Source: Candidatus Omnitrophota bacterium (GTDB lineage: Bacteria; Omnitrophota; Gorgyraeia; Duberdicusellales; 4484-171). Taken from it: a stretch of DNA of 64,000 nucleotides. The notes under the pieces are model-generated. The model ran no database searches, was not told the DNA's origin, and worked only from the letters and a program-made list of their open reading frames with translations. The stretch lies in the NCBI GenBank assembly GCA_021735655.1, contig JAIPGM010000001.1, positions 224,001 through 288,000 on the forward strand, in the 5' to 3' direction. Both the position numbers and the translations under genes were made by a program. Positions 14,289 to 27,194 of this stretch are shown piece by piece (the stretch's first letter is position 1; each line of letters begins with the position of its first letter).

Positions 14289-14307
14289 CTAAAAAAAGGA
14301 GTCACAA

Positions 14308-14544
14308 TTGAAGGACAAAATAAGAAACTTTATCATTAGCAATTTTATGTTTGATGAGGGTAGTTTAGGAGATGATGATTTACTATTTGAGACAGGGATC
14401 ATAGATTCTATGGGATTTATCAAACTGCTCGCTTTCATTGATAAGACATTTAATCTATCTATGGATATGAGTGAAATAAGCATCGATAATTTTAATACTT
14501 TAAACAATATTGTTAAGAGCTTAGAGCGTAAGATTAATAGGTAA
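14308..14544 (+). CDS. Acyl/peptidyl carrier protein (DltC-like)
   Basis: 78 aa. 'GIIDSMGFIKLLAFI' is the DSx phosphopantetheine-attachment motif. Confidence 0.7.
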   Translation: MKDKIRNFIISNFMFDEGSLGDDDLLFETGIIDSMGFIKLLAFIDKTFNLSMDMSEISIDNFNTLNNIVKSLERKINR

Positions 14545-14571
14545 TTATTTTATAAAAAGGAGATTCGGAAT

Positions 14572-15717
14572 ATGAATTTTTCCTGGAGTAAAAATCAAGA
14601 AGAACTCAAAAGGGCGGCAACAAAATTTGCGGCGGCCAAACTCAATGATGATATTATTCAAAGGGACAAGAACGGTAAATTTTCCTTAGACGGCTGGAAG
14701 GCCTGCGCTGACTTTGGTCTCCAGGGCATGTTAATGCCCAAAAAGTATGGTGGATTGGGATTTGGGTTACTTGATATAGTAGCTATCTTGGAAGGTATAG
14801 GCTACGGATGTAAAGATAATGGACTTATATTTTCAATCAATGCCCATATTTGGGGGGCAGAGGCGCCGATTTATCATTTTGGTACAGAAACCCAGAAGAA
14901 AAAATTACTTCCCGGTTTTTGTAACGGTAGCTTAATTGGGGCAAATGCAATGACTGAACCCGGTTCAGGTTCGGATGTCTATTCCCTTAGAACTACCGCT
15001 GTTAAAAAGAATAATTATTACACTTTGAACGGAACCAAGATCTTTGTCACCAATGCCCCTTTGGCTGATATATTTATTGTTTACGCTCGTACCGCTAAGT
15101 CTCGAGGATTCTCCGGTTTATCTTGCTTTTTAGTCGAGAAAGGTACCAAGGGATTAGTTATAGGTGAAAATTTCGAAAAAATGGGGCTTAGGACCAGTCC
15201 GATGTCGGAAGTGATTTTTAATAATTGTAAGATACCGAAAAACAATTTAGTCGGTCAAAAAGGTTCAGGAGCCTTGGTTTTTAATGATAGCATGGAATGG
15301 GAAAGGGTTTTTATTTTAGCTAATTGTGTAGGTATTATGGATCGCCAGCTGAAATATTGCATAGAATACGCAAATTCCAGAAAGTTGGATACCAAGCCAA
15401 TCGGTAAATACCAATCCGTAGCCAATAAGATTGTAGATATCCAGTCGAACCTTGAAGTAAGCCGCTTGCTTCTTCATAAGGCCGCTTGGCTTAAGAGCTG
15501 CAAAGAATCGGCATCAATGGCTTCAGCAATGACAAAATTGTATCTTAGCGAAGCTTATATTAAAAGTATTCGCTGTGTCATGGATATCTTTGGTGGATAT
15601 GGATATATGACTGAGTATGAATTGGAGCGCGAATTGAGAGATGCTCTAGCGAGCACTGCCTATTCGGGAACATCGCAGATACAAAAAAATATCATTGCCG
15701 GTCTTAGCGGATTATAA
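14572..15717 (+). CDS. Acyl-CoA dehydrogenase family flavoenzyme
   Basis: 'GANAMTEPGSGSDV' is the ACAD signature. The C-terminal helical domain ends '...YSGTSQIQKNIIAG'. Confidence 0.8.
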   Translation: MNFSWSKNQEELKRAATKFAAAKLNDDIIQRDKNGKFSLDGWKACADFGLQGMLMPKKYGGLGFGLLDIVAILEGIGYGCKDNGLIFSINAHIWGAEAPIYHFGTETQKKKLLPGFCNGSLIGANAMTEPGSGSDVYSLRTTAVKKNNYYTLNGTKIFVTNAPLADIFIVYARTAKSRGFSGLSCFLVEKGTKGLVIGENFEKMGLRTSPMSEVIFNNCKIPKNNLVGQKGSGALVFNDSMEWERVFILANCVGIMDRQLKYCIEYANSRKLDTKPIGKYQSVANKIVDIQSNLEVSRLLLHKAAWLKSCKESASMASAMTKLYLSEAYIKSIRCVMDIFGGYGYMTEYELERELRDALASTAYSGTSQIQKNIIAGLSGL

Positions 15718-15718
15718 T

Positions 15719-17302
15719 ATGGAATACCGATTACCGACATTATTGCGGCAAAGCGCAAAGAGTCAACCTTTTAAAGTTGCCATTAGACAGGGCGAAGAAG
15801 AACTTTCATATGAAGATTTGAATTTGTTGAGTGATAAGTTGGCCTCTTGCTTAGTCGATAAAGGCCTAAAGGTTGGCGACAGAGTAGGAATATATATAGA
15901 TAAATCGATTGATGCTGTTATTGCTATATTTGGTATTTTAAAATCGGGCGGTTGTTATGTTTCTTTGGATCCTTTGGATAATTCCCGGAGGCAGACCTTA
16001 ATTGTTAAGGATTGTTCATTGAAATATTTGATTTCTTCTTCAAAAAAGTTACCATCTCTGGTTAAAATAATACGCGGTATAGATAGTCTAGAGTATATAT
16101 TTGTAGTTGACGCCAACAAAAAAGAAAGTAGCAGGGATTGGTGCGACATTAAGATGGTTTTTAAAAAGGAGATATTTAATTCAGATGTTAGCATTTCCCC
16201 AAGGTCGAGAAGATTAAAAGACAACAACTCGGCATATATACTTTATACTTCTGGTTCAACCGGAAAACCCAGAGGAGTAGAGATTAGTCATCGGGCTTCA
16301 CTTGCTTTCATAAATTGGGCCAATAAGTATTTTAATATTACTAAAGCCGACATTGTGGCGGCTCAGTCTCCGTTTCATTTCGACCTTTCCATTTTTGATA
16401 TTTTCGTCAGCATAAAGGCCGGCGCGACCATTTGTATTGTTCCTCAGTCTTTATCAATTTTTCCTAAATCTTTGGCAGATTTTATCGAGAGCCAGAAAAT
16501 TAGCACTTGGTATTCTACACCTTCGGTTTTAATCAAGCTTCTTTACTACGGTAATCTTCAGAAAAGGAATTTATCAGCCCTAAAAAGAATTATTTTCGCC
16601 GGTGAGGTATTTCCCCCAAAGCATCTGCATAAGCTAATGAAGATATTGCCGGGAGCTAAATACTATAATTTATACGGACCTACCGAAACGAATGTCTGTA
16701 CTTGTTATTTTTTAAAGCGTATTCCTAAGGTAGATAAACCGATCCCGATAGGGTGTCCTTGTCGCGGCCAATATATTTTCATAGTTGATAAGGCTGGCAA
16801 TCTTGTTAAAAACGGTCAATCGGGCGAATTATGTGTTAGCGGACCCACACTTATGCAGGGATACTGGAATAATTCTCAGGCAACCGAGAAAGCTATGATT
16901 AAGCTCAATTTTTTAAATAAAGCCAGTAAGGTATATAGAACTGGTGATTTGGCCAAAATTAGAAAAAACGGAGATATTCTTTATTGTGGCCGTAATGATG
17001 AAATGTTAAAGGTAAGGGGATATCGGGTTGAGCCGGCTGAAATTGAAGCAGTTTTGCATTCATGTCCGGGAATAAAAGAAGCAGCTGTGGTAGGAGTCTC
17101 AGCTGATGCAGCTGGGGACAGAATCAAAGCCGTGATTAGCCTAAAAACTAACTATTCTGTTTCTGAGAGTAAGGTAAAGCTTTTTTGTTCCAGGCAGTTG
17201 CCTTCCTATATGGTTCCTGCGGAAATATTTTTTAAAAAGTCGTTACCTCGGCTTTCTACCGGAAAAATTGATAGGAAGAAATTGAAAACAATTCGAAGAT
17301 GA
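15719..17302 (+). CDS. Adenylate-forming enzyme (AMP-dependent ligase, DltA/NRPS A-domain-like)
   Basis: Core adenylation motifs are present: 'YILYTSGSTGKPRGVEISH', 'YGPTE', 'YRTGDL' and 'GRNDEMLKVRGYRVEPAEIE'. ATG 15719 is preferred. The ORF track starts at 15695. Confidence 0.85.
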   Translation: MEYRLPTLLRQSAKSQPFKVAIRQGEEELSYEDLNLLSDKLASCLVDKGLKVGDRVGIYIDKSIDAVIAIFGILKSGGCYVSLDPLDNSRRQTLIVKDCSLKYLISSSKKLPSLVKIIRGIDSLEYIFVVDANKKESSRDWCDIKMVFKKEIFNSDVSISPRSRRLKDNNSAYILYTSGSTGKPRGVEISHRASLAFINWANKYFNITKADIVAAQSPFHFDLSIFDIFVSIKAGATICIVPQSLSIFPKSLADFIESQKISTWYSTPSVLIKLLYYGNLQKRNLSALKRIIFAGEVFPPKHLHKLMKILPGAKYYNLYGPTETNVCTCYFLKRIPKVDKPIPIGCPCRGQYIFIVDKAGNLVKNGQSGELCVSGPTLMQGYWNNSQATEKAMIKLNFLNKASKVYRTGDLAKIRKNGDILYCGRNDEMLKVRGYRVEPAEIEAVLHSCPGIKEAAVVGVSADAAGDRIKAVISLKTNYSVSESKVKLFCSRQLPSYMVPAEIFFKKSLPRLSTGKIDRKKLKTIRR

Positions 17303-17421
17303 AAAAAAACCATAAAACACTCATGGTAACAATTGTTCTCTGTGGTATTATATTTATAATCAGCTATATTTTATATTTTTTTATAAAGCCTCCGCTTGAA
17401 TTTATATATCAACAATTCTAG
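17299..17421 (+). CDS. DltX-like 40-aa membrane micropeptide
   Basis: Not in the ORF track. Its ATG overlaps the stop of the adenylation gene as ATGA. The translation is MKKNHKTLMVTIVLCGIIFIISYILYFFIKPPLEFIYQQF*. It has one transmembrane segment, and its C-terminal FIYxxF motif resembles my recollection of the DltX C-terminus (FIYNEF-like), which needs checking against a DltX model. Confidence 0.45.
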   Translation: MKKNHKTLMVTIVLCGIIFIISYILYFFIKPPLEFIYQQF

Positions 17422-17452
17422 GATGGCGAATCTTTTTTAAAGGCATGCTATT

Positions 17453-18748
17453 ATGAAGGATTACAATAAGGAGTCTCTTTTTACTGCAGCTGGAAAGTTT
17501 ATTTTTGGCACAGGTATCATCTTTTTACTGCTTTTTTTATTTTATCAGAAGTCATTAATTCTGTCTTTAGATCCTAATCCAAATTTGTCTGAAATTACAG
17601 TTGAGAAAATAAAACTTACCAGGCTTTATTTATTATCGATATCTTTGGTGTTGATTTTCATATCAGGGGCAGCAAAGATGTTGCCGGTTTTTAACCGTTA
17701 TATAAATCGAATAATGGCAATTAAACCAGTGCGGTATTTTTTGTTGATAATGCTGCCGATAGTTATTTTCGAACTATACTTTCAACCTTTAGCTTTGCAA
17801 AAACCGACAATTTTAATGCGGGATGATGATTTAATCTGGAAATTACGGCCAAATAGCGAATCTATATGGGCTGAAGCGATAGTAAAGATAAATTCCAAAG
17901 GCTTAAGGGGTCCCGAGTTAGATTACGCTAAACCGGCTGATACAAAAAGAATCCTTTATTTGGGCGATTCTATAACTTTTGGTTTTAGCTTGAAAAGCTA
18001 CGATCAAACATTTCCCTGTCAGGTTGAGGAAATTTTAGAGGAAGATAATAATAGAAAAGTTGAAACAATAAATGCCGGTGTGGGCGGTTATTCTCCCTGG
18101 CAGGAATATATCTATTTATCAAAAGAAGGTATTAACTATGATCCGGATTTAGTTGTAGTCGCTTTTACCTTAACCGATGTTAGTGAGAAGCTTGGCTTGA
18201 GACGATTCGGCGGCGACAGCGAAGGGGCTCAGCTGGCAGCTTCGGCTATTACGATATTTGATTGGTTAAGTAACAAAAGCCGCATTTTATATTTCATAAA
18301 GGAGGCGGTTACTAACCTAAGATTCAACGGCGATATTGAAAAAATGGTACCGGTTGAAGAAGGGCTTAAAATTACCCAGCTAATAGATGAAGCAAACGAT
18401 CCGGACATTAAAAATGCATGGGAGATTACCTTAAATAATCTTGGTAAAATATTCGATTTTTGTAAAAGTGGAAATGTCCCGGTAATATTAGTTATTTTTC
18501 CGGTAGCGTCTCAATTTGATGATGTTGAGAACATGTCAGGGCCACAACTTTTTGTGAGCAGGTTTGCTAGTAAAAAAAATGTTCTGTCATTGGACTTGCT
18601 GCCTTTGTTATCTCAGAGAGTCAAAAATAAAAAAGTAGACCTAGAAGATTATTTTTTGGGTCCACTTCACTTATCAGCTGAGGGAAATAAGGTAGTTGCT
18701 GAATTAATAGCTGACTTTATTAAGGAAAGTAATATTTTATATTTTTGA
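17453..18748 (+). CDS. Membrane-anchored SGNH/GDSL hydrolase-fold protein (DltD/AlgX-like)
   Basis: An N-terminal transmembrane helix is present. The GDS block is 'ILYLGDSITFGF', the Gly block is 'NAGVGGYS', and the C-terminal region has a DxxH-like motif. Confidence 0.6.
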   Translation: MKDYNKESLFTAAGKFIFGTGIIFLLLFLFYQKSLILSLDPNPNLSEITVEKIKLTRLYLLSISLVLIFISGAAKMLPVFNRYINRIMAIKPVRYFLLIMLPIVIFELYFQPLALQKPTILMRDDDLIWKLRPNSESIWAEAIVKINSKGLRGPELDYAKPADTKRILYLGDSITFGFSLKSYDQTFPCQVEEILEEDNNRKVETINAGVGGYSPWQEYIYLSKEGINYDPDLVVVAFTLTDVSEKLGLRRFGGDSEGAQLAASAITIFDWLSNKSRILYFIKEAVTNLRFNGDIEKMVPVEEGLKITQLIDEANDPDIKNAWEITLNNLGKIFDFCKSGNVPVILVIFPVASQFDDVENMSGPQLFVSRFASKKNVLSLDLLPLLSQRVKNKKVDLEDYFLGPLHLSAEGNKVVAELIADFIKESNILYF

Positions 18749-19620
18749 CTTTTATCAAAATGAGTAAAACCTTAAATATTGAAGATTTGGATAGGGCTGT
18801 ACTTAGGAAATTGGAAACTCTGCAGAGTATTTTTTCTGATATGGGAAGTGCTTTAATAGCCTATTCCGGAGGTGTAGATAGCACGCTTTTAACCAAGGTG
18901 GCCAAGGATGTTCTAAAAAGTAAGGCGGTTGCTGTGACTTCAGAGTCAGAAACTTATCCTTTACGGGAATCAAGGCAGGCTAAGGAATTGGCAAGGCAGC
19001 TGGGAATAAGGCATATTATTATTAATACCCGTGAACTAGATAATGAAGAGTTTTCTAAAAATTCACCTCAAAGATGTTATTTTTGCAAAAAAGAATTGTT
19101 TTCCAGACTTTTGGATTTAGCAAAACAGCATAGTTTAGATTATGTTGTTGAGGGCTCAAATCACGACGATCGGTCTGATTATCGGCCGGGCCTAAAGGCA
19201 ATAGAGGAACTAGGCATAAGAAGTCCTTTAAAAGAAGCCGAGCTAACCAAGAAAGAAATCAGAATACTTTCGAAGATGTTCGGTTTAAGCTCTTGGAATA
19301 AACCGTCTTTTGCCTGCCTATCTTCAAGATTCCCTTACGGAACTAAAATAACCAAAGATGGATTAATAAAGGTTGATCGGGCTGAGGGGGTGTTGCTTAA
19401 ATTTGGCTTTAGCCAGTTAAGAGTAAGAATACATGGGCCAATAGCAAGGATAGAGGTTCCCAAGGAAGATATTTCTTTATTTTTTAAGGCTGGTTTGTCA
19501 GACAGAGTTGTTGAAGAATTTAAAAAAATCGGTTTTTTCTATGTAACTTTAGATTTGGCAGGTTATGAAACTGGCAGTATGAATAAGCTGCTTAAGAGCG
19601 AGGATAAATTTGGATACTAA
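18745..19620 (+). CDS. larE: LarE-family ATP-dependent sulfur transferase (PP-loop)
   Basis: 'ALIAYSGGVDSTLL' is the PP-loop motif. Conserved Cys are present (CYFCKKELF, CLSSRFPYG). It sits directly upstream of larB and larC homologs. Confidence 0.75.
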   Translation: MTFIKMSKTLNIEDLDRAVLRKLETLQSIFSDMGSALIAYSGGVDSTLLTKVAKDVLKSKAVAVTSESETYPLRESRQAKELARQLGIRHIIINTRELDNEEFSKNSPQRCYFCKKELFSRLLDLAKQHSLDYVVEGSNHDDRSDYRPGLKAIEELGIRSPLKEAELTKKEIRILSKMFGLSSWNKPSFACLSSRFPYGTKITKDGLIKVDRAEGVLLKFGFSQLRVRIHGPIARIEVPKEDISLFFKAGLSDRVVEEFKKIGFFYVTLDLAGYETGSMNKLLKSEDKFGY

Positions 19621-20356
19621 AAGACTAAAAAAATTACTTCAGGATATAAAATCGGGCAAAAAAAATGTAGCCTCAGCTATGCGGGCATTAAAGTCTCTAC
19701 CTTTTGAGGATTTAGGTTTTGCTAAGGTGGATACTCATAGAGATTTACGTTGTGGATTCTCAGAAGTCGTATTCTGTCAGGGGAAAACTTTAAACCAAGT
19801 AACAACTATCGTTAAAAAACTTTCCTTGGTTAACTCTTGTGTTTTGGCAACTAAAGCCGATAAAAAGGTTTATAGGGCTATAAAACGAATCAGAAAGAAT
19901 GCTGTTTATTATGAACAGGCAAAAATAGTAGTTATTGGAAAAAATAAAAAGTTAAAGTCAGAAAAAACTATTTTGGTTGTCAGTGCCGGTACTTCGGATA
20001 TTCCAGTAGCCGAAGAAGCCGCGGTTACAGCCATGGTTTTAGGCAATAAAGTTCAAAAGGTATATGATGTGGGGGTCGCCGGTGTACACCGGTTGCTTAA
20101 ACATAAACAAAAACTGTTTAAAGCCAGTGTGATTATAGTTGTTGCCGGAATGGAGGGGGCCTTGGCAAGTATAGTCGGAGGGTTGGTGGATAAGCCGGTT
20201 ATAGCTGTTCCTACCAGTGTGGGTTATGGAGCAAGCTTTAAGGGACTTTCGGCATTACTTACTATGCTTAATTGCTGTGCTCCGGGAATTACAGTGGTAA
20301 ATATAGATAATGGATTTGGGGCAGGGTACGCTGCTAGTATAATAAATCGACAATGA
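19610..20356 (+). CDS. larB: LarB-like NaAD carboxylase/hydrolase (PurE-fold)
   Basis: An N-terminal LarB-specific region (LKKLLQDIKSG...) precedes the PurE-like 'ILVVSAGTSDIPVAEEAA' domain. Confidence 0.7.
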   Translation: MDTKRLKKLLQDIKSGKKNVASAMRALKSLPFEDLGFAKVDTHRDLRCGFSEVVFCQGKTLNQVTTIVKKLSLVNSCVLATKADKKVYRAIKRIRKNAVYYEQAKIVVIGKNKKLKSEKTILVVSAGTSDIPVAEEAAVTAMVLGNKVQKVYDVGVAGVHRLLKHKQKLFKASVIIVVAGMEGALASIVGGLVDKPVIAVPTSVGYGASFKGLSALLTMLNCCAPGITVVNIDNGFGAGYAASIINRQ

Positions 20357-21534
20357 AGATAGCTTATTTTGATTGTTTTTGTGGGATAAGTGGGGATATG
20401 ATTTTGGGGGCATTTTTGGACTGTGGGTTAGATATTGAAGATTTGCGAAAAGAATTGAATAAGTTAAAGTTATCCGATTATCAAATAAAAATTGAGAAAG
20501 TAAAAAAAGGTGTTATCTCAGGTACTAAATTCAGCGTTGACATAAAAAAACAAAAAATCGAGCGTAGCTTAAAAGATATCCTTAAGATTATAGGAGAAAG
20601 TAATTTGGATGCTGATATAAAAAAATCATCCAGAGAGACATTTGAGTTGTTAGCAAAGGTAGAAGCCGAAATACATAATCAAGATATAGAAAAAATACAT
20701 TTTCATGAAGTAGGGGCAGTTGATTCTATAGTAGATATAGTGGGAGCTTTTATAGGAATAAAACTTTTAGGTATTGAATGTATTTATTCGTCAAAGATTC
20801 ATGTCGGGGATGGCTTTGTTAGGTGTCAGCATGGTACTTTGCCTGTTCCTTCGCCGGCCACGATAGCTTTGCTAAAAGGCATTCCGATTTATTCAAAAGG
20901 GATAGACTCTGAATTGGTTACGCCTACTGGAGCTTGCATTATAAGGAAAGTTTCTAAAGGGTTCGGTCTCTTACCAGACATGGAGATAAAAAAAATAGGC
21001 TATGGCGGAGGAAGAAAAGATTTGTCAATTCCTAATCTTTTAAGAATTTTTATAGGGGAAACCGAGGAGGATAATATATACGATAATGATGAAGTAATAC
21101 TTATTGAGACAAACATAGATGATATGAGCCCCGAGGCAGTAGGCTATATTTCAGAAAGATTGCTTAGCCGAGATGCTTTGGATGTTTTCACTACTCCAAT
21201 TTTTATGAAAAAAAACCGGCCGGCAGTAACTTTAAGTATTTTGACCGAACCTAGCAAGCTCGACGACATGCTTTCTTGTTTATTCTCGGAAACAACTACC
21301 TTTGGTATAAGGATGCGTGGTTTTAAGCGGAGAAAACTTTTACGCAAGATTGCTATGATTGATACAAAGTTTGGTCCGATTGCGGTTAAAGTTGGCCGGA
21401 CTAGTGAAGGGATAAAGACTATCGCTCCTGAATATGAATCTTGTAAACAAGTTGCTCAAAAGGAAAATATTCCTTTTAAAAATATATACAGCGAAGTAAA
21501 GAAAATAGCTGATCAAGTTTTAAAAGAAACCTAA
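20353..21534 (+). CDS. larC: LarC-like nickel insertase (DUF111)
   Basis: 'MKIAYFDCFCGISGDMILGAFLDCGL' is the typical DUF111/LarC N-terminus. The length, about 390 aa, is appropriate. Confidence 0.8.
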   Translation: MKIAYFDCFCGISGDMILGAFLDCGLDIEDLRKELNKLKLSDYQIKIEKVKKGVISGTKFSVDIKKQKIERSLKDILKIIGESNLDADIKKSSRETFELLAKVEAEIHNQDIEKIHFHEVGAVDSIVDIVGAFIGIKLLGIECIYSSKIHVGDGFVRCQHGTLPVPSPATIALLKGIPIYSKGIDSELVTPTGACIIRKVSKGFGLLPDMEIKKIGYGGGRKDLSIPNLLRIFIGETEEDNIYDNDEVILIETNIDDMSPEAVGYISERLLSRDALDVFTTPIFMKKNRPAVTLSILTEPSKLDDMLSCLFSETTTFGIRMRGFKRRKLLRKIAMIDTKFGPIAVKVGRTSEGIKTIAPEYESCKQVAQKENIPFKNIYSEVKKIADQVLKET

Positions 21535-21545
21535 AGGCTTAGCTG

Positions 21546-22760
21546 ATGTCGGTGAAACTTAAGCGTCTATTTGGATCATTTGTGAGATTGTGTTCATTTA
21601 TTGTGCTTATCTTTAGGCCTTACGCCGATAACGAGATTCAGGCATCTAGTGAGCCTTTGCCCGGTGAGCATAAAAATATACCGGCACCTTTCTATCCGCC
21701 GAAAAATTCCAAAATTATATCTTTACCACAACAGAAACAAGTGGTTACGACTGAAGTTTCGATAATAAAAGGTTATAATTTATATTCTATTACCAGAGAA
21801 GCTATCGATGCAATCGGTGGTATGAAAAGTATAGTAAAAAAGGGTAATAAAGTATTTATAAAGCCTAACTATGTAAGTGGCGGCCTTAATGGGCATGATC
21901 CAGTTACAACCGGAGAAATTGCTCATCCGGAAGTAGTTGCTTCGGTAGCGGAAGAATGCTTGAAGGCCGGAGCTAAAGAAGTAATAATTGGTGAGTGGGT
22001 CGAGCGTCCTTATAAAATAAACTTTGGTGGCGAGGAAGGAAAAGATGGTGCTCAAGTTAAGCATTTAATCGATTTATTAAATAAAAAATATGGACATAAG
22101 ATTTATTTGATAAATTTAATGGACCATACTACTAATTTTAAATACTTTCCTTCAAGGACTAAATTAGGCTTTTTGGCAATTCCTGACATAGTAGCTGAAG
22201 CAGATGTAATTATCTCGATCCCTTCTCTGAAAACTCATCATAAACCATGCCCGGTAAGTTTAGGTATGAAGAATTTTATGGGTATTATGCCTTCTATTTT
22301 TTATGGCGAGCCGCGGTATAAATTGCATGAAGCTGGAGTTCATCAGGTAATAGTGGACATTAACCAAGCTTTAAAGCCATCTTTAGTTGTTATCGATGGA
22401 AGCTTTGGGATGGAAAAGGGTGGTGCCTCAGTGTTTTTAGGAGGCAAACCAGTAGATGTTAGCAAGCGTATAGGAGGGTTTTTGGTGATTGCCGGGAGAG
22501 ATCCGGTGGCGACAGACGCAACTGCTACTCGGTTGATTACTAAAGATTGGGGGCCGAGACCTGAAGATTCCAATTTGGGTACTCCTTGGTATGTACATCA
22601 TCTTCGGATGGCTAGCGAACAAGGATTGGGGGTTTTGGATGCTTCGCGAATAATTATTAAGGGTGAGAGCTTAAAAAGCGTTGAAATGAATTGGCAGGCT
22701 TCGGATGATGGAGTATATCCTGAAATTAAGAAAGATGAAAATCCTAAAGACAACAATTAA
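21546..22760 (+). CDS. DUF362-like domain protein with an N-terminal hydrophobic segment
   Basis: 'KGNKVFIKPNYVSG' and 'SIPSLKTHHKPCPVSLGMKNFMG' match my recollection of DUF362 blocks. It sits immediately downstream of larBCE. Confidence 0.45.
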   Translation: MSVKLKRLFGSFVRLCSFIVLIFRPYADNEIQASSEPLPGEHKNIPAPFYPPKNSKIISLPQQKQVVTTEVSIIKGYNLYSITREAIDAIGGMKSIVKKGNKVFIKPNYVSGGLNGHDPVTTGEIAHPEVVASVAEECLKAGAKEVIIGEWVERPYKINFGGEEGKDGAQVKHLIDLLNKKYGHKIYLINLMDHTTNFKYFPSRTKLGFLAIPDIVAEADVIISIPSLKTHHKPCPVSLGMKNFMGIMPSIFYGEPRYKLHEAGVHQVIVDINQALKPSLVVIDGSFGMEKGGASVFLGGKPVDVSKRIGGFLVIAGRDPVATDATATRLITKDWGPRPEDSNLGTPWYVHHLRMASEQGLGVLDASRIIIKGESLKSVEMNWQASDDGVYPEIKKDENPKDNN

Positions 22761-23676
22761 GTGCATATTTTATTGTTTTCTTTTGATTTATTCTACTGGA
22801 GGAGATGTCCGGTCAGAAACCTCTTTGGTAATCGAAACTAATGATTTACAAGGATATTGGAAACAGGGGGTGGTTGGATCAAGAAAAGTAGTTTTTACCG
22901 ATAAGGCAGATAATTTTTCAGAGATTAGAGCATCTGTGCCTAAAGATGGAAAATATAATTTATTGGTATATCTTCATCATGATTGGAGAAATAGAGAAGC
23001 TTTCCCTGGTATTTATGTTGAAGCGGTTGATTCAAAAGGAATCCAGCATAAAGGGTATCACCTAGTTGAAAATATTTGGTATTTAGATGAAGAAGCCCAA
23101 GGTCGTTGGTTTTTTGTTTCCTTATCAAAAAATCCTTATTGGGTTCTCCCTCAAGGAGAGTTGTATTTAAAATTCTGGGCTGTGGGAAAAACCTTTCCCT
23201 GGGAAGGTCAATCCATTCCTTTAGAAGGTAAGGTTTCGATTAATAGTTTTTTTCTTATGCCGGTATTTAACTCCGATTCTGGTATGTTTTCTTTAGGCAT
23301 AATTAATCCTGAAAGCGGCAAGGGGGATTGGGAGGTTCATAATTATCATCCGTTGCATGCCACCAACTTTATTAAGACCGATAAAAAAAATGCACAATTT
23401 TTGTGTGAAACCGATATTGTGAAGGCAGGGTATTATCAAGCATTCCTTTCAGTTTTTTCGCCTTCAGGTGGTAATTTGGAGTTAAACTTGAAAGGCCAGT
23501 CAGACAATAGGGCAACCGTCATCAGATTAGATTCTAGTAAGGAGTGGTTGTTGATTCCAACCGAAACTATGTATTTAGATAAAGGCTATTATTCGTTGAT
23601 GTTTAAAAATTTAACCTCAAAAGAAGTAATGATTGATTTTGTTTTCTTAGCGCCATCGGAAAAATCTTTTAAATGA
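22735..23676 (+). CDS. Exported hypothetical protein
   Basis: The ATG at 22735 gives MKILKTTIKCIFYCFLLIYSTGG, which is signal-peptide-like. The ORF track extends it to 22705. Confidence 0.4.
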   Translation: MKILKTTIKCIFYCFLLIYSTGGDVRSETSLVIETNDLQGYWKQGVVGSRKVVFTDKADNFSEIRASVPKDGKYNLLVYLHHDWRNREAFPGIYVEAVDSKGIQHKGYHLVENIWYLDEEAQGRWFFVSLSKNPYWVLPQGELYLKFWAVGKTFPWEGQSIPLEGKVSINSFFLMPVFNSDSGMFSLGIINPESGKGDWEVHNYHPLHATNFIKTDKKNAQFLCETDIVKAGYYQAFLSVFSPSGGNLELNLKGQSDNRATVIRLDSSKEWLLIPTETMYLDKGYYSLMFKNLTSKEVMIDFVFLAPSEKSFK

Positions 23677-25244
23677 ATTTAAAAGCAATACCACAAAATA
23701 AAGTTTTAATAATTTTTGCTATTTTAATCGTTGGTTTATTACTGCGTGTATATAAGTTAGATAGTAAGAGTCTTTGGTATGATGAAGCCTGCGCTTTAAG
23801 CTTTACTGAGTATAATTTGAGTGATGTGCCGTCTCACCGTTATATAGCTAAACCGGTATATTTTTTAATTTTAAAACCATGGGTTAGTTTATTTGGATCC
23901 AGTGAATCTGCTGGTCGGTCTTTATCAGTTATTTTTGGGTTAGTTTCAATTTTTTTAATCTATAAACTAGCTAAAATACTTTTTGGCCGGTCAGTAGGAG
24001 CGTGGAGTGCTTTTATCTTGGCTATCTCGCCTTATCATATTTATCATTCCCAGCAGCTAAGAAATTACAGCTTATTTGTTTTGCTGGGTATTTTGTCGAT
24101 GTTTTTATTTGTAAAAAGCCTGGAAAAAACCAAAAATAGTTTATATCTTGTTTTTCATACCTTGATCAATGGCCTTCTTATTTATACGCATCCTTACGGA
24201 ATATTTATAATAATTGCTCAGAGTATAGTTTTATTTGCTCAAAGAAAGAGAGTAAAATTTAAAAGAAGATGGGTTATTTCCCAGATAATAGTTTTATTAT
24301 GCTTTATTTCTTTGGTTTCGGTGATAGTCACAAACCCTAAGACTAATGAAATCGATTATATTCAGAAACCCGATCTTGCTTTGGTGCTTGAAACCTTTGA
24401 GGCTTTCAGCTACGGGGGGCCCAGGCAGGCGCATGGTGGTTTGGGGTTTTGGATTGATTCCCAGCGTTTAGTTGTGCCCAGAATTACTGTTTTTATATTT
24501 TTGATTTTCTGTTTAATGGGATTAATCCCTAAAAAGAAATTCAGGAAAGATTCTGACCTTTCTTCTGATCCCTTAGGCGGAATTATTTTGATTTTGCTCT
24601 GGCTGGTAGTGCCGATTATTTGTGCCTATAGTTTTTCAAAGATTTTTTTTCCGATTTATATAACTAGGTATCTCGTTGCTTCCGCCCCGGCTTTTTATAT
24701 CATTGTTGCTAGGGGAATAAGTCAGATGCCAAGATTAACTCGTCAAACAGTTATTCCAGTAGTTATTATTTTTCTGTCAGTATTTTCTTTAAACATTCTA
24801 TATAATCCGCAGGTAAAAGGCGACTGGCGAGATGGGGCTATTTTCTTAAAAGAACGGATAAAAAAAGAAGATGCTATTGTGTTTGTCCCTTTACAGCAAA
24901 TTGTTCCTTTTTGGTATTACTATAAATACGGCCAAAAGCATGCCTTAAAGAACATAGATAGATTTGGCAGGCTGGTAAACGGAAAGCAGTATCGGGAGTT
25001 TTACGATAAGGCTAATTTTATTACGGGTATAGAATTAGATGCCCGGCAAGAGGATATAGAAAATAACTTTAATAATCTAGCTAAGAACGATGAAGATATC
25101 TGGCTTATTGTTTCTCCGGGGTGGATGTCGCAGAAATCCCTTGAGTTTACGCAGAAGTATCTTGATGAATTTTATGTTTTAAAGAGTAAAAGTTCTTATT
25201 CTTATAATGGTGTGGAAATTTTACAATATAGCGTTAAAAATTAA
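23673..25244 (+). CDS. GT-C membrane glycosyltransferase (ArnT/PMT-like)
   Basis: The 'SLWYDEACALSF' DE-loop motif is present and the N-terminal half is polytopic. It is a paralog of the 9908 gene (…YAQEARNYS… / …YHSQQLRNYS…). Confidence 0.65.
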   Translation: MNLKAIPQNKVLIIFAILIVGLLLRVYKLDSKSLWYDEACALSFTEYNLSDVPSHRYIAKPVYFLILKPWVSLFGSSESAGRSLSVIFGLVSIFLIYKLAKILFGRSVGAWSAFILAISPYHIYHSQQLRNYSLFVLLGILSMFLFVKSLEKTKNSLYLVFHTLINGLLIYTHPYGIFIIIAQSIVLFAQRKRVKFKRRWVISQIIVLLCFISLVSVIVTNPKTNEIDYIQKPDLALVLETFEAFSYGGPRQAHGGLGFWIDSQRLVVPRITVFIFLIFCLMGLIPKKKFRKDSDLSSDPLGGIILILLWLVVPIICAYSFSKIFFPIYITRYLVASAPAFYIIVARGISQMPRLTRQTVIPVVIIFLSVFSLNILYNPQVKGDWRDGAIFLKERIKKEDAIVFVPLQQIVPFWYYYKYGQKHALKNIDRFGRLVNGKQYREFYDKANFITGIELDARQEDIENNFNNLAKNDEDIWLIVSPGWMSQKSLEFTQKYLDEFYVLKSKSSYSYNGVEILQYSVKN

Positions 25245-25259
25245 AGGTATATATTTAAA

Positions 25260-27194
25260 ATGATTAAGTTTTTATATCAGGAAATGTACCAGCGCAGAAA
25301 TATTATCGCAATTTTAGTCATTATGCTTATTGTCGGAATGTTCTATTTTCCGACGATAAAGGATATCGATTCTACAATTATAAGCGAGGATGACTGGTTT
25401 GGTTTTTATTACTATGCGGGCATATCAAGATTAACAGCCTTGAAATATCATCAGTTGCCGTTGCGTACTCCTTATCTAGGCGGAGGGTACCCTTCGATTG
25501 CTCACCCTTTCGATTATACCCTAAGCCCTTTTTTCTTTTTTATTTTATTGTTTGGGGAAGTAGCAGGATTAAGGTTGATGGTGTACTTTATTTTTATGTT
25601 TGGTTCTTTGGGGATGTTTTACTTTACTAGATATGTTTTGAAATACAATCTCATGGGAGCTATTTTCTCTTGCTTGACTTTTTCTCTCTGCAGTTGGGGG
25701 GCTTTTGAGGTAGTTGACGGAAATATCCCTAAGATATTTTGTTATCTTTTGCCTTGGCTATTTGCTTTTTTGCTGCAATCTAAAAAAGATAAGCGATTCT
25801 TAATCCTTGCTTGTTTAGTTTTGAGTCCGATTCTGACCCTATCTGGTTTATCTTTTATCCCGGTAGTGCTGGCTTTGTTTTTATTAGCCTGCTTTTATGC
25901 CGTCAGTATAAATAAGGGGTTTAAGTTTAAAATCAGAGGATCGTATATAGCTTTTTTTCTGGCCATAATAATCGGAACCTGTCTTTTATTTGCTATTAAA
26001 GTCATTCCGATGTTTGAACTTTATAAAATGCGCACAGAGTATATTCATTTGCCATACGAGAATTCTTATTCTGCGATTTCCCGAGCCACTAAGGCCTTTG
26101 GCGCTTGTTTGGATATGGAATTACTTAAAAAGTCCTTGTTGGATAAGAGCTTTCGTGGATATTCAACAATGTATTTAGGGTATCTTCCACTCGTTTTTAT
26201 GTTTTTATCGATTTTAATCTATGCAAAAAAAAATATGCGCTACATATTGCTTCTGATCGTATTTGCCCTCATTCAGTTTGGATCGAGAAGTCCCCTGGAT
26301 TTATTTAAGATATTTTGGCAGATTCATCCGTCAGTTCATGGGATATGGAGGCTTAATAAATATTTTGGTTTTTTTATTCCCTTTTTTATTTCTATAATTG
26401 CCGGGAGGTTTTTCTTAATTTTTAGACATAAAAAGATAATTAAACCGCTGGTATTTATAATCATCGGGATTAGTGCATATCATATGTATTCGAATAATAG
26501 ATTGATTTTTAGTCCTATGGTTTACGAAAGAAAGCCGTCTTTGGAGGTGTATGATTCGTTTTTTCCGGTTGAGATAGAAAACACTACCATAGAAAGAGCT
26601 TGGCCGGGATTTCATGAGGTTAAAGACATACGGTCCTATCAGCCTTTTTGGTTGCTGTTACGTCAAAATATAGGAGTGGTGAATTTTAATTGGTCGGGGA
26701 ATTTAAACCTTTCTCAATACGCTCAGCCTAAATATATACTTCCTACTGGTAAACAGGTAGGAGAAATTGTCTATGTCCGTGGTTACGAACAGTTATCCCA
26801 AGATATAAATGTACCAATTGATTTAATGACTGTAGCAAGGGACAACCCTCATTATCAAGGAGAAGTATTTTTTTTGAAAAAAAACAACAAGGTGGACTCG
26901 ACATATCTTAGTCCTAATATAGTAAAAGCTGATGTTAGTCTTAGAAGTCCTGATCGGCTTATTATAAATCAGAATTACCACAAGAGTTGGACAGTGGACA
27001 AGGGCAAGCTGATAAATCACAAAGGCTTGCTGGCAGTTGAGCTTGTAGATCAAGGTGTTCATCAGGTGACATTTAGATATGTTCCTCTAGATTTTTATTT
27101 AGGCGCGATTGTAAGTTTTTTTACACTTATAGGTATGTTGGCTTACTTTTGGTTCGTGCCTGGGAAAAAAATTAGTTTCAATAAAGCTAAATAA
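25260..27194 (+). CDS. Large polytopic membrane protein, YfhO-like (tandem paralog 1)
   Basis: 644 aa with many transmembrane helices. The C-terminus is '…FRYVPLDFYLGAIVSFFTLIG…'. Confidence 0.45.
   Translation: MIKFLYQEMYQRRNIIAILVIMLIVGMFYFPTIKDIDSTIISEDDWFGFYYYAGISRLTALKYHQLPLRTPYLGGGYPSIAHPFDYTLSPFFFFILLFGEVAGLRLMVYFIFMFGSLGMFYFTRYVLKYNLMGAIFSCLTFSLCSWGAFEVVDGNIPKIFCYLLPWLFAFLLQSKKDKRFLILACLVLSPILTLSGLSFIPVVLALFLLACFYAVSINKGFKFKIRGSYIAFFLAIIIGTCLLFAIKVIPMFELYKMRTEYIHLPYENSYSAISRATKAFGACLDMELLKKSLLDKSFRGYSTMYLGYLPLVFMFLSILIYAKKNMRYILLLIVFALIQFGSRSPLDLFKIFWQIHPSVHGIWRLNKYFGFFIPFFISIIAGRFFLIFRHKKIIKPLVFIIIGISAYHMYSNNRLIFSPMVYERKPSLEVYDSFFPVEIENTTIERAWPGFHEVKDIRSYQPFWLLLRQNIGVVNFNWSGNLNLSQYAQPKYILPTGKQVGEIVYVRGYEQLSQDINVPIDLMTVARDNPHYQGEVFFLKKNNKVDSTYLSPNIVKADVSLRSPDRLIINQNYHKSWTVDKGKLINHKGLLAVELVDQGVHQVTFRYVPLDFYLGAIVSFFTLIGMLAYFWFVPGKKISFNKAK

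What the first reader, a model, noticed from the sequence alone, without database searches (positions are those of the whole stretch)
18745..22760. larE-larB-larC nickel-pincer cofactor operon with no LarA; followed by an exported DUF362-like protein
The three biosynthetic genes for the nickel-pincer nucleotide (NPN) cofactor are present in order. These are LarE with PP-loop SGGVDS, LarB with its PurE-like domain, and LarC with the DUF111 N-terminus MKIAYFDCFCGISGDM. There is no LarA-type racemase in the window. The next gene (21546) instead carries DUF362-like blocks (KPNYVSG, SLKTHHKPCP…KN.MG) and an N-terminal hydrophobic or signal segment. LarBCE without LarA is usually taken to mean that another, often unknown, NPN-dependent enzyme exists. 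The adjacent DUF362-like protein, embedded in a glycan-modification locus rich in epimerisation-prone chemistry, is a candidate new NPN-dependent sugar racemase or epimerase.
Basis: partly seen in the sequence, partly recalled or inferred. Interest (0 to 1): 0.6.

Follow-up and report, generated by a model that had tools for sequence, protein, structure and literature searches.

The report
Nickel-pincer genes beside LarA-like DUF362 protein
In an uncultured Omnitrophota bacterium, the three genes that build the nickel-pincer cofactor sit directly in front of an exported protein of unknown function whose fold, key lysine and one key histidine match the cofactor-binding half of lactate racemase; this makes it a credible, testable but unproven new user of that cofactor, although the gene linkage is confined to one small lineage.

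Summary
larE (18745-19620), larB (19610-20356) and larC (20353-21534) are genuine and complete. They are followed 11 nt later by a true DUF362 gene (21546-22760). No LarA is detectable anywhere in the 64 kb window.

For it:
- Pfam's DUF362 HMM hits authentic LarA.
- The invariant K242 and H231 align with LarA's NPN-tethering Lys184 and catalytic His174.
- Most relatives carry canonical twin-arginine (Tat) signals, which fits export with a cofactor already loaded.

Against it:
- Only 3 of 40 orthologous loci, all in one small clade, have lar genes upstream, and a ≥90%-identical relative lacks them.
- None of 47 distant relatives has lar genes nearby.
- The window protein's Tat motif is degenerate (KR).
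- LarA's His108 is replaced by Glu153, and the equivalent of the nickel ligand His200 is unresolved.
- Genome-wide co-occurrence could not be tested.

The conserved unit is DUF362 + an exported, weakly CBM-like protein + a GT-C (PMT_2) glycosyltransferase. The best reading (about 0.5) is a periplasmic NPN-dependent sugar-modifying enzyme.

The parts
18745..19620 (+). larE: PP-loop ATP-dependent sulfur insertase of nickel-pincer nucleotide (NPN) synthesis. It is the CXXC...C ([4Fe-4S]) type. The PP-loop SGGVDS is at nt 18865-18882.
   Evidence: TIGR00268 at 327 bits against a cut-off of 150. The sequence shows RCYFCKKE...FACLSSR, the CXXC-C motif described for the catalytic [4Fe-4S] LarE in PMC9283937. 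It overlaps the upstream GDSL gene by 4 nt.
19610..20356 (+). larB: NaAD carboxylase/hydrolase, the first step of NPN synthesis.
   Evidence: NF033503 LarB at 293 bits against a cut-off of 175; PF00731 AIRC. It overlaps larE by 11 nt.
20353..21534 (+). larC: CTP-dependent nickel insertase, with LarC1 and LarC2 fused.
   Evidence: PF01969 at 478 bits over the full profile; TIGR00299 and NF052512. NCBI MCF7907339.1. It overlaps larB by 4 nt.
21546..22760 (+). DUF362 protein (404 aa), the candidate NPN acceptor or user. It has a LarA-like N-domain fold.
21546..21620 (+). N-terminal export signal or signal-anchor of the DUF362 protein (MSVKLKRLFGSFVRLCSFIVLIFRP). It is a degenerate twin-arginine motif (KR-L-F) with a basic residue after the hydrophobic segment.
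   Evidence: Predicted helix at residues 2-22, then a disordered stretch at 23-68. Canonical RR motifs occur in 39/41 sister-clade orthologues, 10/10 of the 37-44% relatives and 40/46 distant relatives, but in 0/61 of the window-like clade by the strict pattern.
22230..22274 (+). Core motif K229-T230-H231 ... K242-N243 (LKTHHKPCPVSLGMKN). H231 aligns with LarA His174 and K242 aligns with LarA Lys184, the NPN tether.
   Evidence: hhalign aligns 176-242 with LarA 114-184 and ends at the Lys. Fragment mapping on the Pfam DUF362 HMM puts both His at about position 111 and both Lys at about 121. Both are invariant in 94/94 family members. K242 is present in 137/138 and H231 in 128/140 of wider representatives.
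22326..22328 (+). H261, a nearly invariant His 19 residues after K242. It is a possible nickel ligand, but its equivalence to LarA His200 is unresolved.
   Evidence: Present in 93/94 and 125/137. The profile alignments stop at the Lys. HMM mapping places it nearer to LarA Met216/His217.
22705..23676 (+). Conserved partner gene (323 aa as the ORF is listed; the likely start is Met11 at 22735). It encodes an exported protein with a conserved ~150-aa domain and a second, weakly CBM6/35-like domain.
   Evidence: A homologue lies directly downstream of DUF362 in 31/33 genome loci and in L165-L168, L171 and L172. It has Sec-type signal peptides. Alignment A2. Weak PDB profile hits to a polysaccharide-binding protein (8j3y, E 0.009) and to CBMs (2cdo, 2vzp); the L020 variant is fused to AP_endonuc_2 (7.9e-14).
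23673..25244 (+). PMT_2 (GT-C fold) membrane glycosyltransferase, the third member of the conserved trio.
   Evidence: PF13231 at 63 bits; weak Agl23/mannosyltransferase NCBIfam hits. It follows the partner gene in most orthologous loci. It overlaps the partner gene by 4 nt.

Best explanation

Steps of the model, all inferred:
- The DUF362 protein is a distant homologue of the NPN-binding N-terminal domain of lactate racemase (LarA).
- NPN is tethered to Lys242, the counterpart of LarA Lys184. His231, the counterpart of His174, acts as the acid/base. An invariant His261 or another residue completes the nickel site.
- The holo-protein is exported. Export is by Tat in most relatives, and by a degenerate KR-type signal or signal-anchor here.
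- It works on the periplasmic face together with the two genes that always accompany it: an exported, probably carbohydrate-binding protein and a GT-C (PMT_2) glycosyltransferase.
- There it carries out a redox-neutral hydride-shuttle reaction, such as epimerisation or an oxidation/reduction pair at a sugar carbinol, on a lipid-linked sugar or envelope glycan. A covalently tethered cofactor would suit a compartment that has no NAD(P)H pool.

Shown: the identity of the lar genes; the fold homology; alignment and invariance of the Lys and His; the tight operon-like arrangement; Tat signals in relatives; the conserved trio.

Inferred: NPN binding, the export route, the substrate and the chemistry.
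For: (1) Gene identities are far above curated cut-offs.

(2) Packing is tight and on one strand. GDSL/larE overlap by 4 nt, larE/larB by 11 nt and larB/larC by 4 nt. The gap from larC to DUF362 is 11 nt, and the partner gene and PMT_2 overlap by 4 nt. There is no terminator-like site on the + strand between 17685 and 25860.

(4) Residue mapping. AEADVIISIPSLKTH231 aligns with AEADLLISEGFIESH174, and K242 aligns with K184, by hhalign and by mapping on the Pfam HMM. K242 is invariant in 94/94 and present in 137/138. H231 is invariant in 94/94 and present in 128/140.

(5) The same larB-larC-DUF362-partner-PMT_2-membrane protein order is kept in L165 at only 45-72% protein identity, and a LarC C-terminus precedes DUF362 in L005.

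(6) Canonical Tat signals occur in 39/41 sister-clade orthologues and 40/46 distant relatives, with no Fe-S Cys motif. This points to export of a folded, cofactor-bearing protein.

(7) Precedents. LarA homologues that lack one catalytic His still tether NPN through the Lys and are tentatively linked to carbohydrate metabolism (PMC12611868). About 15% of genomes have larBCE without larA (PMC11796402). Non-LarA NPN enzymes have been found through adjacency to lar genes (PMC13524815).
Against: - Only 3 of 40 orthologous loci (window, L005, L165) have lar genes upstream, and all three belong to one small clade.
- P0361, at least 90% identical to P0002, has a GT2 gene upstream instead and no lar genes on 15 kb.
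- None of 47 distant relatives has lar genes within 10 kb.
- Only 1 of 80 LarC-centred loci has any DUF362 nearby, and that one is on the opposite strand.
- Two Omnitrophota LarC loci show no DUF362 nearby.
- LarA's first catalytic His108 corresponds to Glu153 here, and to Gln/Gly/Ala/His elsewhere in the family.
- The nickel ligand His200 lies in a LarA segment with no aligned counterpart.
- There is no Lar_N (PF09861) or LarA_C (PF21113) hit.
- The window-like clade has lost the canonical RR motif (0/61 by the strict pattern; KR here), so Sec-type export of an unfolded protein is possible. That would make cytoplasmic loading of NPN problematic.
- The Lys/His site is conserved across the whole DUF362 family, including apparently cytoplasmic members, so it could serve a function other than NPN binding.
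- The rest of the genome was not visible.
Confidence: 0.5

Rival explanations
1. The adjacency is incidental. The larEBC operon was inserted into a busy envelope-glycan island and supplies NPN to an enzyme encoded elsewhere in the genome, such as a LarA homologue, an AKR-type NphT, or another unknown user. The DUF362 protein does not bind NPN. Its conserved Lys and His serve a different ligand or catalytic role inherited from the common ancestor with LarA.
For: - lar genes are missing next to DUF362 in 37/40 orthologous loci and 47/47 distant ones.
- The adjacency differs between proteins at least 90% identical: L005 against L172.
- larE-larB-larC is a self-contained, widely conserved unit whose neighbours vary, and 0/80 such loci carry LarA. 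The NPN user is therefore usually encoded elsewhere.
- The nearest LarC relatives, at 59-61% identity, come from mixed phyla, which is compatible with a mobile operon.
- His108 is not conserved and the His200 equivalent is unresolved.
- Only 64 of 341 kb of the contig was seen.
- LarA specialists used DUF362 as an outgroup, not as a member of the family.
Against: - By my rough estimate, there is roughly a 0.3% chance in any one genome that a lar operon lands, by accident, directly upstream of the one gene in the window that belongs to the LarA clan.
- The arrangement persisted while the proteins diverged to 45-72% identity.
- The tethering Lys and one catalytic His are invariant and aligned.
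- Tat export without any recognisable cofactor motif would still need an explanation.
Confidence: 0.35
2. The lar genes serve another protein of the same glycan island rather than DUF362. Candidates are one of the unannotated proteins (for example 22705-23676, 25260-29128 or 48230-49837) or an oxidoreductase-like enzyme. DUF362 is then just a neighbour within the co-transcribed array.
For: - The lar genes are embedded in a long same-strand array. The upstream GDSL gene overlaps larE by 4 nt.
- In a second Omnitrophota genome (L170), larEBC again lies near an AMP-binding/PP-binding/MBOAT set like the one upstream here, with no DUF362 within 10 kb.
- NPN users with folds unrelated to LarA exist (PMC13524815).
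Against: - No other window protein shows any relation to LarA, AKR or ornithine cyclodeaminase families.
- The unannotated candidates are membrane or exported proteins with no nucleotide-binding signature.
- DUF362 is the only LarA-clan member in the window and is the gene directly coupled to larC.
Confidence: 0.08
3. The DUF362 protein binds NPN but is not a catalyst. It would be a carrier, storage or delivery protein for the cofactor, or a nickel-handling accessory of the Lar pathway.
For: - The second catalytic His of LarA is absent (Glu153).
- LarA's C-terminal substrate-binding domain gives no Pfam hit.
Against: - Many additional invariant polar residues (K106, N108, K229, R257, D271, E290, D324) suggest an active site rather than a simple carrier.
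- The strictly conserved partnership is with an exported glycan-binding-like protein and a GT-C transferase, not with lar genes.
- Export from the cytoplasm makes no sense for a biosynthetic accessory.
Confidence: 0.05

Closest known systems
LarA / lactate racemase superfamily (Pfam Lar_N PF09861 + LarA_C PF21113; PDB 5HUQ, 9EIA, 7S91)
   Same: - Same Pfam clan (CL0471).
- The motif AEAD-x-x-IS-x5-H...K is shared.
- Lys184 and His174 have invariant counterparts (K242, H231).
- The gene is adjacent to NPN biosynthesis genes, as in the L. plantarum lar operon.
   Different: - No PF09861 or PF21113 hit.
- His108 is replaced by Glu153.
- The His200-containing segment has no aligned counterpart.
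- The portion C-terminal to the aligned region is shorter than in LarA.
- The protein carries an export signal, whereas, as far as I know, all characterised LarA enzymes are cytoplasmic.
- Known LarA substrates are 2-hydroxy acids, whereas the context here is envelope glycan synthesis.
Single-histidine LarA homologues LarA_Sp / LarA_Bw (PDB 9Q3J, 9Q3K; PMC12611868)
   Same: - They lack one of the two catalytic histidines yet still tether NPN through the conserved Lys.
- They are proposed to be involved in carbohydrate metabolism.
   Different: - They lose His174 (replaced by Asn) and keep His108, whereas the DUF362 protein keeps the His174 equivalent and loses His108.
- They are bona fide DUF2088 members with a LarA C-domain, form octamers and have no export signal.
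NphT, the NPN-dependent aldo-keto-reductase family (PMC13524815)
   Same: - It is an NPN user other than classical LarA that was found through adjacency to larB/larC/larE in LarA-less neighbourhoods.
- It uses a Lys tether and a His ligand.
- It acts on sugars by hydride shuttling.
   Different: - It has a TIM-barrel fold unrelated to LarA or DUF362.
- It has no export signal.
- NPN binding has been shown experimentally, whereas here nothing has been tested.
Works-like analogy (from general knowledge, not tested): DprE1/DprE2 epimerisation of decaprenyl-phospho-ribose feeding GT-C arabinosyltransferases; Tat-exported Gfo/Idh/MocA oxidoreductases with bound NAD(P)
   Same: - The logic of an oxidation/reduction-type sugar epimerisation outside the cytoplasm that supplies or edits substrates of GT-C transferases.
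- Tat export of an enzyme that takes its nicotinamide-type cofactor along with it.
   Different: - The folds and cofactors are unrelated.
- No evidence here for the substrate.
- This is an analogy only.

Membership tests
LarE (NPN sulfur insertase) | PP-loop SGGxDS, and an equivalog HMM score above the curated cut-off | tested here: met
   SGGVDS at residues 41-46. TIGR00268 at 327 bits against a cut-off of 150.
LarE, [4Fe-4S] subtype | CXXC...C motif (PMC9283937) | tested here: met
   RCYFCKKE ... FACLSSR in the translated ORF; the motif definition comes. The cluster itself cannot be tested with these tools.
LarB | LarB equivalog HMM above the cut-off; PurE-like fold domain | tested here: met
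   NF033503 at 293 bits against 175; PF00731 at 48 bits.
LarC | Full-length Ni_insertion (DUF111) domain with both LarC1 and LarC2 parts | tested here: met
   PF01969 at 478 bits, profile positions 1-375 of 375. TIGR00299 at 208 bits and NF052512 at 145 bits.
DUF362 (PF04015) | HMM score above the gathering threshold | tested here: met
   106.3 bits against 24, over residues 103-328.
LarA superfamily (DUF2088) | Lar_N (PF09861) and LarA_C (PF21113) domains | tested here: not met
   Only PF04015 is reported at E <= 0.01. A profile search of PDB sequences finds nothing.
LarA superfamily (DUF2088) | LarA N-domain fold | tested here: met
LarA superfamily (DUF2088) | NPN-tethering lysine (Lys184 in LarA_Lp) | tested here: met
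   K242 aligns with K184 by hhalign and by Pfam-HMM mapping. It is invariant in 94/94 and present in 137/138. This is a positional equivalence only; covalent attachment has not been tested.
LarA superfamily (DUF2088) | Catalytic His174 | tested here: met
   H231 aligns with H174. It is invariant in 94/94 and present in 128/140.
LarA superfamily (DUF2088) | Catalytic His108 | tested here: not met
   The aligned position is Glu153 in the Omnitrophota clade, His or Gln in the 34-44% relatives, and Gln/Gly/Ala in wider representatives.
LarA superfamily (DUF2088) | Nickel-coordinating His200 | tested here: inconclusive
   The profile alignments end at the Lys. LarA has about 13 extra residues there. 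The invariant H261 (K242+19) maps nearer to LarA 216-217 on the Pfam HMM.
LarA superfamily (DUF2088) | Binds NPN and nickel | not testable with these tools
   This requires co-expression with LarBCE plus intact-mass MS or ICP-MS.
Tat (twin-arginine) substrates | S/T-R-R-x-F-L-K motif before a moderately hydrophobic segment | tested here: not met
   The window protein has K-R-L-F (KLKRLFGSF). The canonical RR motif is present in 39/41 sister-clade orthologues, 10/10 of the 37-44% relatives and 40/46 distant relatives, and there is a Pfam TAT_signal hit in P0104. Natural KR variants are known to be functional (general knowledge), so Tat export here is possible but not shown.
NPN-user gene linked to lar biosynthesis genes (guilt by association) | Recurrent adjacency or co-occurrence with larB/larC/larE across lineages | tested here: inconclusive
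   Adjacency was found in 3/40 orthologous loci (one clade) and 0/47 distant loci. One of 80 LarC loci has a DUF362 nearby.

The most novel reading that the evidence does not exclude
DUF362 as a whole is a second, large branch of nickel-pincer-dependent enzymes, sister to LarA. It comprises about 7,400 clusters at 50% identity, with the Lys184-equivalent lysine essentially invariant. It would then account for part of the 'missing' NPN users in genomes that carry larBCE but no larA. Its Tat-targeted members, including the clade in this window, would be the first extracytoplasmic nickel-pincer enzymes. They would carry a covalently tethered hydride-shuttle cofactor into the periplasm to epimerise or otherwise redox-edit lipid-linked sugars or envelope glycans for GT-C transferases.
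Probability: 0.33. Interest if true: 0.85.

Novelty: new variant of a known kind. Interest (0 to 1): 0.62.

Why it matters
Few nickel enzymes are known. It has been an open question since 2014-2015 what uses the nickel-pincer cofactor in the roughly 15% of genomes that make it but have no lactate racemase homologue (PMC11796402).

Two non-LarA users, an AKR family and an ornithine cyclodeaminase, were reported only recently (PMC13524815). In the library searched here, DUF362 appears in only three papers. None of them considers it as an NPN user; one uses it merely as an outgroup for LarA trees.

This locus supplies a concrete, cheap-to-test candidate with three features:
- a LarA-type cofactor domain that keeps the tethering lysine;
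- a gene apparently coupled to larC;
- membership of a family with thousands of members.

If confirmed, it would greatly enlarge known nickel biochemistry. It would give the first example of a nickel-pincer enzyme exported from the cytoplasm. It would also assign a function to a large domain of unknown function, with links to cell-envelope glycan modification in the poorly understood Omnitrophota.

If refuted, the locus is an ordinary orphan larEBC operon that happens to lie beside a distant LarA relative.

Tried and rejected
1. Sequence searches of the DUF362 protein and its family profile against PDB sequences found nothing useful. Only fold comparison revealed LarA.
2. hhalign in global mode gave meaningless end-to-end alignments. 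Only the local mode was usable, and its statistics are weak (P about 0.002-0.012) because the LarA profile was built from homologues at 77-99% identity.
3. I tried to extend the alignment past the Lys to test His200. No alignment was obtained, so this is left as inconclusive.
4. I tried to establish genome-level co-occurrence by matching 'longest contig' lengths between the LarC and DUF362 hit lists. Only the window's own contig matched, which is uninformative because only the top 120 LarC hits are listed.
5. Exact look-up of the window's own contig failed. Protein accessions were obtained another way.
6. The supplement of the Nat Chem paper, which might have listed PF04015 among co-occurring families, is not held.
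7. The single-sequence AF2 model of the partner protein was unusable (pLDDT 36.5). Orthologue alignments taken from fetched loci are not accepted by the predictor.
8. The AFDB fold library was unavailable.
9. An Fe-S cofactor as the reason for Tat export was rejected, because only one conserved Cys column exists.
10. A cytoplasmic orientation of the catalytic domain was rejected on the positive-inside rule: three basic residues precede the helix and net acidic residues follow it.
11. One apparent literature hit for DUF362 (PMC12423673) was a false match to DUF3623.
12. An Rfam scan found no riboswitch or other RNA element in the window.
13. The recurrent neighbours of LarC in 80 metagenome loci were judged heterogeneous and were not pursued. 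By eye they are CobO-like, YjbQ-like, CbiO-type ABC, OYE-like and SDR proteins.

Full report

On the + strand, the window carries larE (18745-19620), larB (19610-20356) and larC (20353-21534), followed by a 404-aa gene at 21546-22760.

- The three Lar assignments rest on curated equivalog models scored well above their cut-offs: TIGR00268 at 327 bits against 150, NF033503 at 293 against 175, and PF01969 at 478 bits over the full profile with both LarC1 and LarC2 parts.
- LarE has the SGGVDS PP-loop and also a CXXC...C motif. PMC9283937 ties that motif to the catalytic [4Fe-4S] type of LarE rather than the sacrificial L. plantarum type.
- The fourth gene is a real DUF362 (PF04015, 106 bits against a cut-off of 24).
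- No LarA is detectable in the 64 kb. I checked with Pfam scans of every ORF of 110 aa or more, with tblastn using a LarA sequence that I first verified residue by residue against PDB 5HUQ, and with a LarA HMM against the six-frame translation.
- The other known NPN-using families (AKR, ornithine cyclodeaminase) are also absent.
- The proteins are NCBI MCF7907339.1 (LarC) and MCF7907340.1 (DUF362), from a Candidatus Omnitrophota MAG contig of 341 kb. More than 80% of that contig, and the rest of the genome, is unseen.

**Context in the window**

The whole window is an envelope-glycan or lipid modification island, almost entirely on the + strand. It contains:

- at least 14 radical-SAM genes (several with B12-binding or SPASM domains);
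- five PMT_2 (GT-C) transferases, together with GT2 and GT4 transferases;
- a WecA/MraY-type initiating transferase and a Wzy_C ligase/polymerase;
- GDSL esterases, a polysaccharide deacetylase and a YdjC-like protein.

The lar genes are embedded in this array rather than standing beside it:

- the upstream GDSL gene overlaps larE by 4 nt;
- larE and larB overlap by 11 nt, and larB and larC by 4 nt;
- the DUF362 gene starts 11 nt after the larC stop codon, behind an AAGG;
- the next gene overlaps the 3' end of DUF362, and it overlaps the following PMT_2 gene by 4 nt.

No terminator-like site occurs on the + strand between 17685 and 25860, and promoter-like matches are at background level. Co-transcription is therefore likely but not shown.

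**What the DUF362 protein is**

- The literature already places DUF362 and the LarA N-terminal domain (DUF2088) in one Pfam clan, CL0471. The LarA field has used DUF362 only as an outgroup (PMC11770544).
- An AlphaFold2 (AF2) model built on 48 homologues is confident (pLDDT 88.8).
- The 18 best Foldseek hits in the PDB are all LarA-family structures (E from 1e-6 to 2e-5). The next tier is about 100-fold weaker.
- The aligned span of about 205-217 residues is comparable in length to LarA's N-terminal, cofactor-binding domain. LarA's C-terminal substrate domain gives no Pfam hit.
- Pfam's curated DUF362 HMM itself hits authentic LarA at E = 5e-5 over residues 82-245.
- Some database LarAs carry precomputed hits to both families.

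**Residue-level comparison**

Profile-profile alignment puts DUF362 residues 176-242 on LarA 114-184.

- AEADVIISIPSLKTH231 lies on AEADLLISEGFIESH174.
- The alignment ends exactly at K242 on Lys184, the residue that tethers NPN by a thioamide bond.
- Mapping equivalent fragments of both proteins onto the Pfam DUF362 HMM gives the same answer: both His fall at about profile position 111 and both Lys at about 121.

Conservation is as follows:

- K242 and H231 are invariant in 94 family members down to 34% identity.
- Among 147 more distant cluster representatives, K242 is present in 137 of 138 and H231 in 128 of 140.
- Other invariant or nearly invariant residues are K106, N108, K229, R257 (Arg or Lys), H261, D271, E290 and D324.

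Two LarA signature residues do not carry over cleanly:

- His108 aligns with Glu153 here. That position is His or Gln in the 34-44% relatives and Gln, Gly or Ala more widely.
- The nickel ligand His200 sits in a stretch of about 13 residues that LarA has and the DUF362 profile lacks. The nearly invariant H261 lies 19 residues after the Lys, but it maps closer to LarA 216-217.

There is a precedent for NPN enzymes with only one catalytic His: LarA_Sp and LarA_Bw still tether NPN through the Lys (PMC12611868).

**Export**

- The window protein starts with MSVKLKRLFGSFVRLCSFIVLIF-RPYAD. This is a predicted helix followed by a disordered linker of about 45 residues.
- Its relatives are more informative. 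Canonical twin-arginine motifs (for example TRREFLK, SRRDFLK) occur in 39 of 41 sister-clade orthologues, in 10 of 10 of the 37-44% relatives and in 40 of 46 distant relatives. P0104 has a Pfam TAT_signal hit.
- The family has only one conserved Cys column, so an Fe-S cluster cannot be the reason for Tat export.
- In the 61-member window-like clade, however, the strict RR pattern is gone. The lar-adjacent members keep the nearest variants: KR-L-F in the window, KR-I-F in P0002 and RR-I-F in P0003.
- By the positive-inside rule the catalytic domain faces the periplasm.
- Whether this clade still uses Tat is open. This matters, because Sec export of an unfolded chain would be hard to reconcile with loading NPN in the cytoplasm.

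**Comparative genomics**

*Centred on DUF362.* A scan of species-representative genomes returned 33 Omnitrophota-type orthologous loci (56-75% identity) and 47 distant ones (34-43%), each with up to 10 kb of flank.

- tblastn with the window's LarE, LarB and LarC found lar sequence in only one locus. That locus is L005, where a genuine LarC C-terminus directly precedes DUF362.
- Contig look-ups added L165 (P0003), which is collinear with the window over six genes: LarB 71%, LarC 60%, DUF362 72%, partner 47%, PMT_2 54% and membrane protein 45% identity.
- Several further loci lack lar genes: L001/L002, L003, L004, L166, L167/L168, L171 and L172.
- A neighbour-joining tree puts the three lar-adjacent proteins in one small clade.
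- Within that clade, P0013 has a GT2 gene upstream instead. So does P0361, which is at least 90% identical to P0002.

The adjacency therefore arose once, persisted through considerable divergence, and is nevertheless labile. The tally is 3 of 40 orthologous loci and 0 of 47 distant loci.

*Centred on LarC.*

- Among 80 metagenome loci at 45-61% identity, larE-larB-larC is a widely conserved unit.
- None of these loci has LarA, and only one (L089) has any DUF362. That one is Tat-targeted, on the opposite strand and about 5 kb away.
- Two Omnitrophota LarC loci show LarC alone (L169), or larEBC near a Dlt-like gene set with no DUF362 (L170).

Orphan larEBC operons are thus the norm in this lineage. 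'No LarA nearby' is therefore weak evidence for a new user. Equally, 'no lar genes near most DUF362 genes' is weak evidence against one.

Genome-wide co-occurrence is the decisive test, and I could not run it.

**What always travels with this DUF362**

In 31 of 33 genome loci, and in the loci found by contig look-up, the next gene is a homologue of window 22705-23676. A PMT_2 (GT-C) transferase usually follows, and a GT2 gene often precedes DUF362. In L167/L168 the three genes sit alone between queE and rplU.

The partner protein has these features:

- Sec-type signal peptides;
- a conserved domain of about 150 aa (invariant GxW, GxY, E122 and GRW);
- an optional second domain whose profile weakly but consistently matches polysaccharide-binding modules (8j3y at E 0.009, 2cdo at 0.026, 2vzp at 1.5);
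- in L020, a fusion to a xylose-isomerase-like TIM barrel at E 8e-14.

Independently, DUF362-CBM9-dockerin fusions have been reported in cellulolytic consortia (PMC5742341).

The functional unit is therefore a periplasmic trio concerned with carbohydrates.

**Most likely mechanism**

Shown:

- the lar genes are complete;
- DUF362 is a LarA-type cofactor domain with the tether Lys and one catalytic His;
- the genes are tightly packed;
- relatives are Tat substrates;
- the trio is conserved.

Inferred:

- LarB, LarE and LarC make NPN.
- NPN is attached to K242.
- The holo-protein is exported.
- On the outer face of the membrane it performs a redox-neutral hydride-shuttle reaction on a sugar carbinol of a lipid-linked sugar or nascent glycan.
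- The CBM-like partner and the GT-C transferase help to bind that substrate, and either supply it or consume the product.

A tethered, self-regenerating hydride carrier is chemically attractive where no NAD(P)H is available. I give this reading about 0.5.

**Rival readings**

- Main rival (about 0.35): the lar operon landed here by chance, or for co-expression with something else, and feeds an unseen NPN enzyme. DUF362's Lys and His would then serve another role.
- Minor rival: another protein of the island is the user.
- Minor rival: DUF362 is a non-catalytic NPN carrier.

**Novelty**

- The lar operon itself is ordinary.
- In the searchable library, DUF362 appears in only three papers. None of them proposes or tests NPN dependence.
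- The recent discovery papers for non-LarA NPN enzymes do not mention it.
- The mBio 2024 paper expects the missing user to have a fold distinct from LarA.
- The DUF362 family is large: 7,403 clusters at 50% identity with E <= 1e-3.

The locus thus offers a specific, cheaply testable hypothesis for a long-standing question. The present evidence is circumstantial.

Noticed in passing
window 13092-18748: There is a Dlt-like acylation set directly upstream of larE. It consists of an MBOAT (DltB-like), a 78-aa PP-binding carrier protein, an acyl-CoA-dehydrogenase-fold enzyme, an amino-acid adenylation enzyme (DltA-like) and a GDSL esterase. The dehydrogenase's best matches are PigA and L-prolyl-PCP dehydrogenases (418 and 355 bits, both below their cut-offs). 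This suggests that a proline-derived (pyrrole-2-carboxyl-like) or other amino-acyl group is attached to an envelope glycan.
   Followed up: partly
L170:7736-21212: In a second Omnitrophota genome (JBHPFV010000003.1), larE-larB-larC again lies within a few kb of an AMP-binding, PP-binding and MBOAT set plus GT2 genes, with no DUF362 within 10 kb. The lar genes may therefore be recurrently associated with envelope-modification islands in this phylum.
   Followed up: no
window 1288-56107 (for example 1288, 5161, 7797(-), 30098, 31213, 32570, 37487, 38474, 41828, 45570, 51078, 52039, 54058): The window has an unusually high density of radical-SAM genes: at least 14 in 64 kb, several with B12-binding or SPASM domains. 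They are interleaved with glycosyltransferases. Orthologous DUF362 loci show the same enrichment (L003, L004, L166, L172).
   Followed up: no
window 25260-27194 and 27194-29128: Two tandem paralogous 644-aa polytopic membrane proteins have no Pfam or NCBIfam match. Homologues recur downstream of the DUF362-partner-PMT_2 trio in L028-L030, L033, L165 and L172.
   Followed up: partly
window 36589-37425: There is a second PP-loop ATPase (278 aa) with only weak matches to QueC, NAD synthase, DUF7411 and WbuX-type N-acetyl-sugar amidotransferase. It is not a LarE paralogue by score, and its function is unknown.
   Followed up: partly
L020:11212-12888 (also L022): In bins labelled Desulfocapsaceae, the partner protein downstream of DUF362 is fused at its C-terminus to a xylose-isomerase-like TIM barrel (AP_endonuc_2, E 7.9e-14). 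This links the module to sugar isomerase or epimerase chemistry.
   Followed up: partly
window 21546-22760 (NCBIfam hit): The only NCBIfam match of the DUF362 protein is the cyanobacterial 'Npun_F2552 family' (56 bits, far below its cut-off of 500). Cyanobacteria are the best-known group with larBCE but no larA (PMC11796402), so a DUF362-like family there would be worth checking as the missing NPN user. No literature on Npun_F2552 was found.
   Followed up: partly
L089:12699-17283: A Tat-targeted DUF362 relative lies about 5 kb from larB-larC on the opposite strand. By eye, its neighbours look like an aldehyde:ferredoxin-oxidoreductase-like protein, a Tat-targeted poly-ferredoxin and a cytochrome-b-like membrane protein. 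This suggests a redox role for another DUF362 branch.
   Followed up: no
L001:1-583: The same Omnitrophota contig that carries a DUF362 orthologue also encodes a second DUF362 paralogue fused to 4Fe-4S ferredoxin domains. In contrast, only 5 of 121 full-length wider representatives of the Tat/LarA-like branch have a CxxCxxCxxxC motif.
   Followed up: no
window 20353-21534: The nearest LarC relatives (59-61% identity) are labelled Chloroflexi, Zixibacteria, Syntrophales and Omnitrophota in mixed order, whereas the DUF362 orthologues are almost all Omnitrophota. The lar operon may have been acquired horizontally, but no compositional anomaly is visible (GC 0.36-0.38 throughout).
   Followed up: partly
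window 1-64000: All but three of the genes of 110 aa or more are on the + strand. GC skew is positive in every 2 kb bin, so cumulative skew rises monotonically. This is consistent with one long leading-strand gene array. No Rfam family reaches its gathering score anywhere in the window.
   Followed up: no
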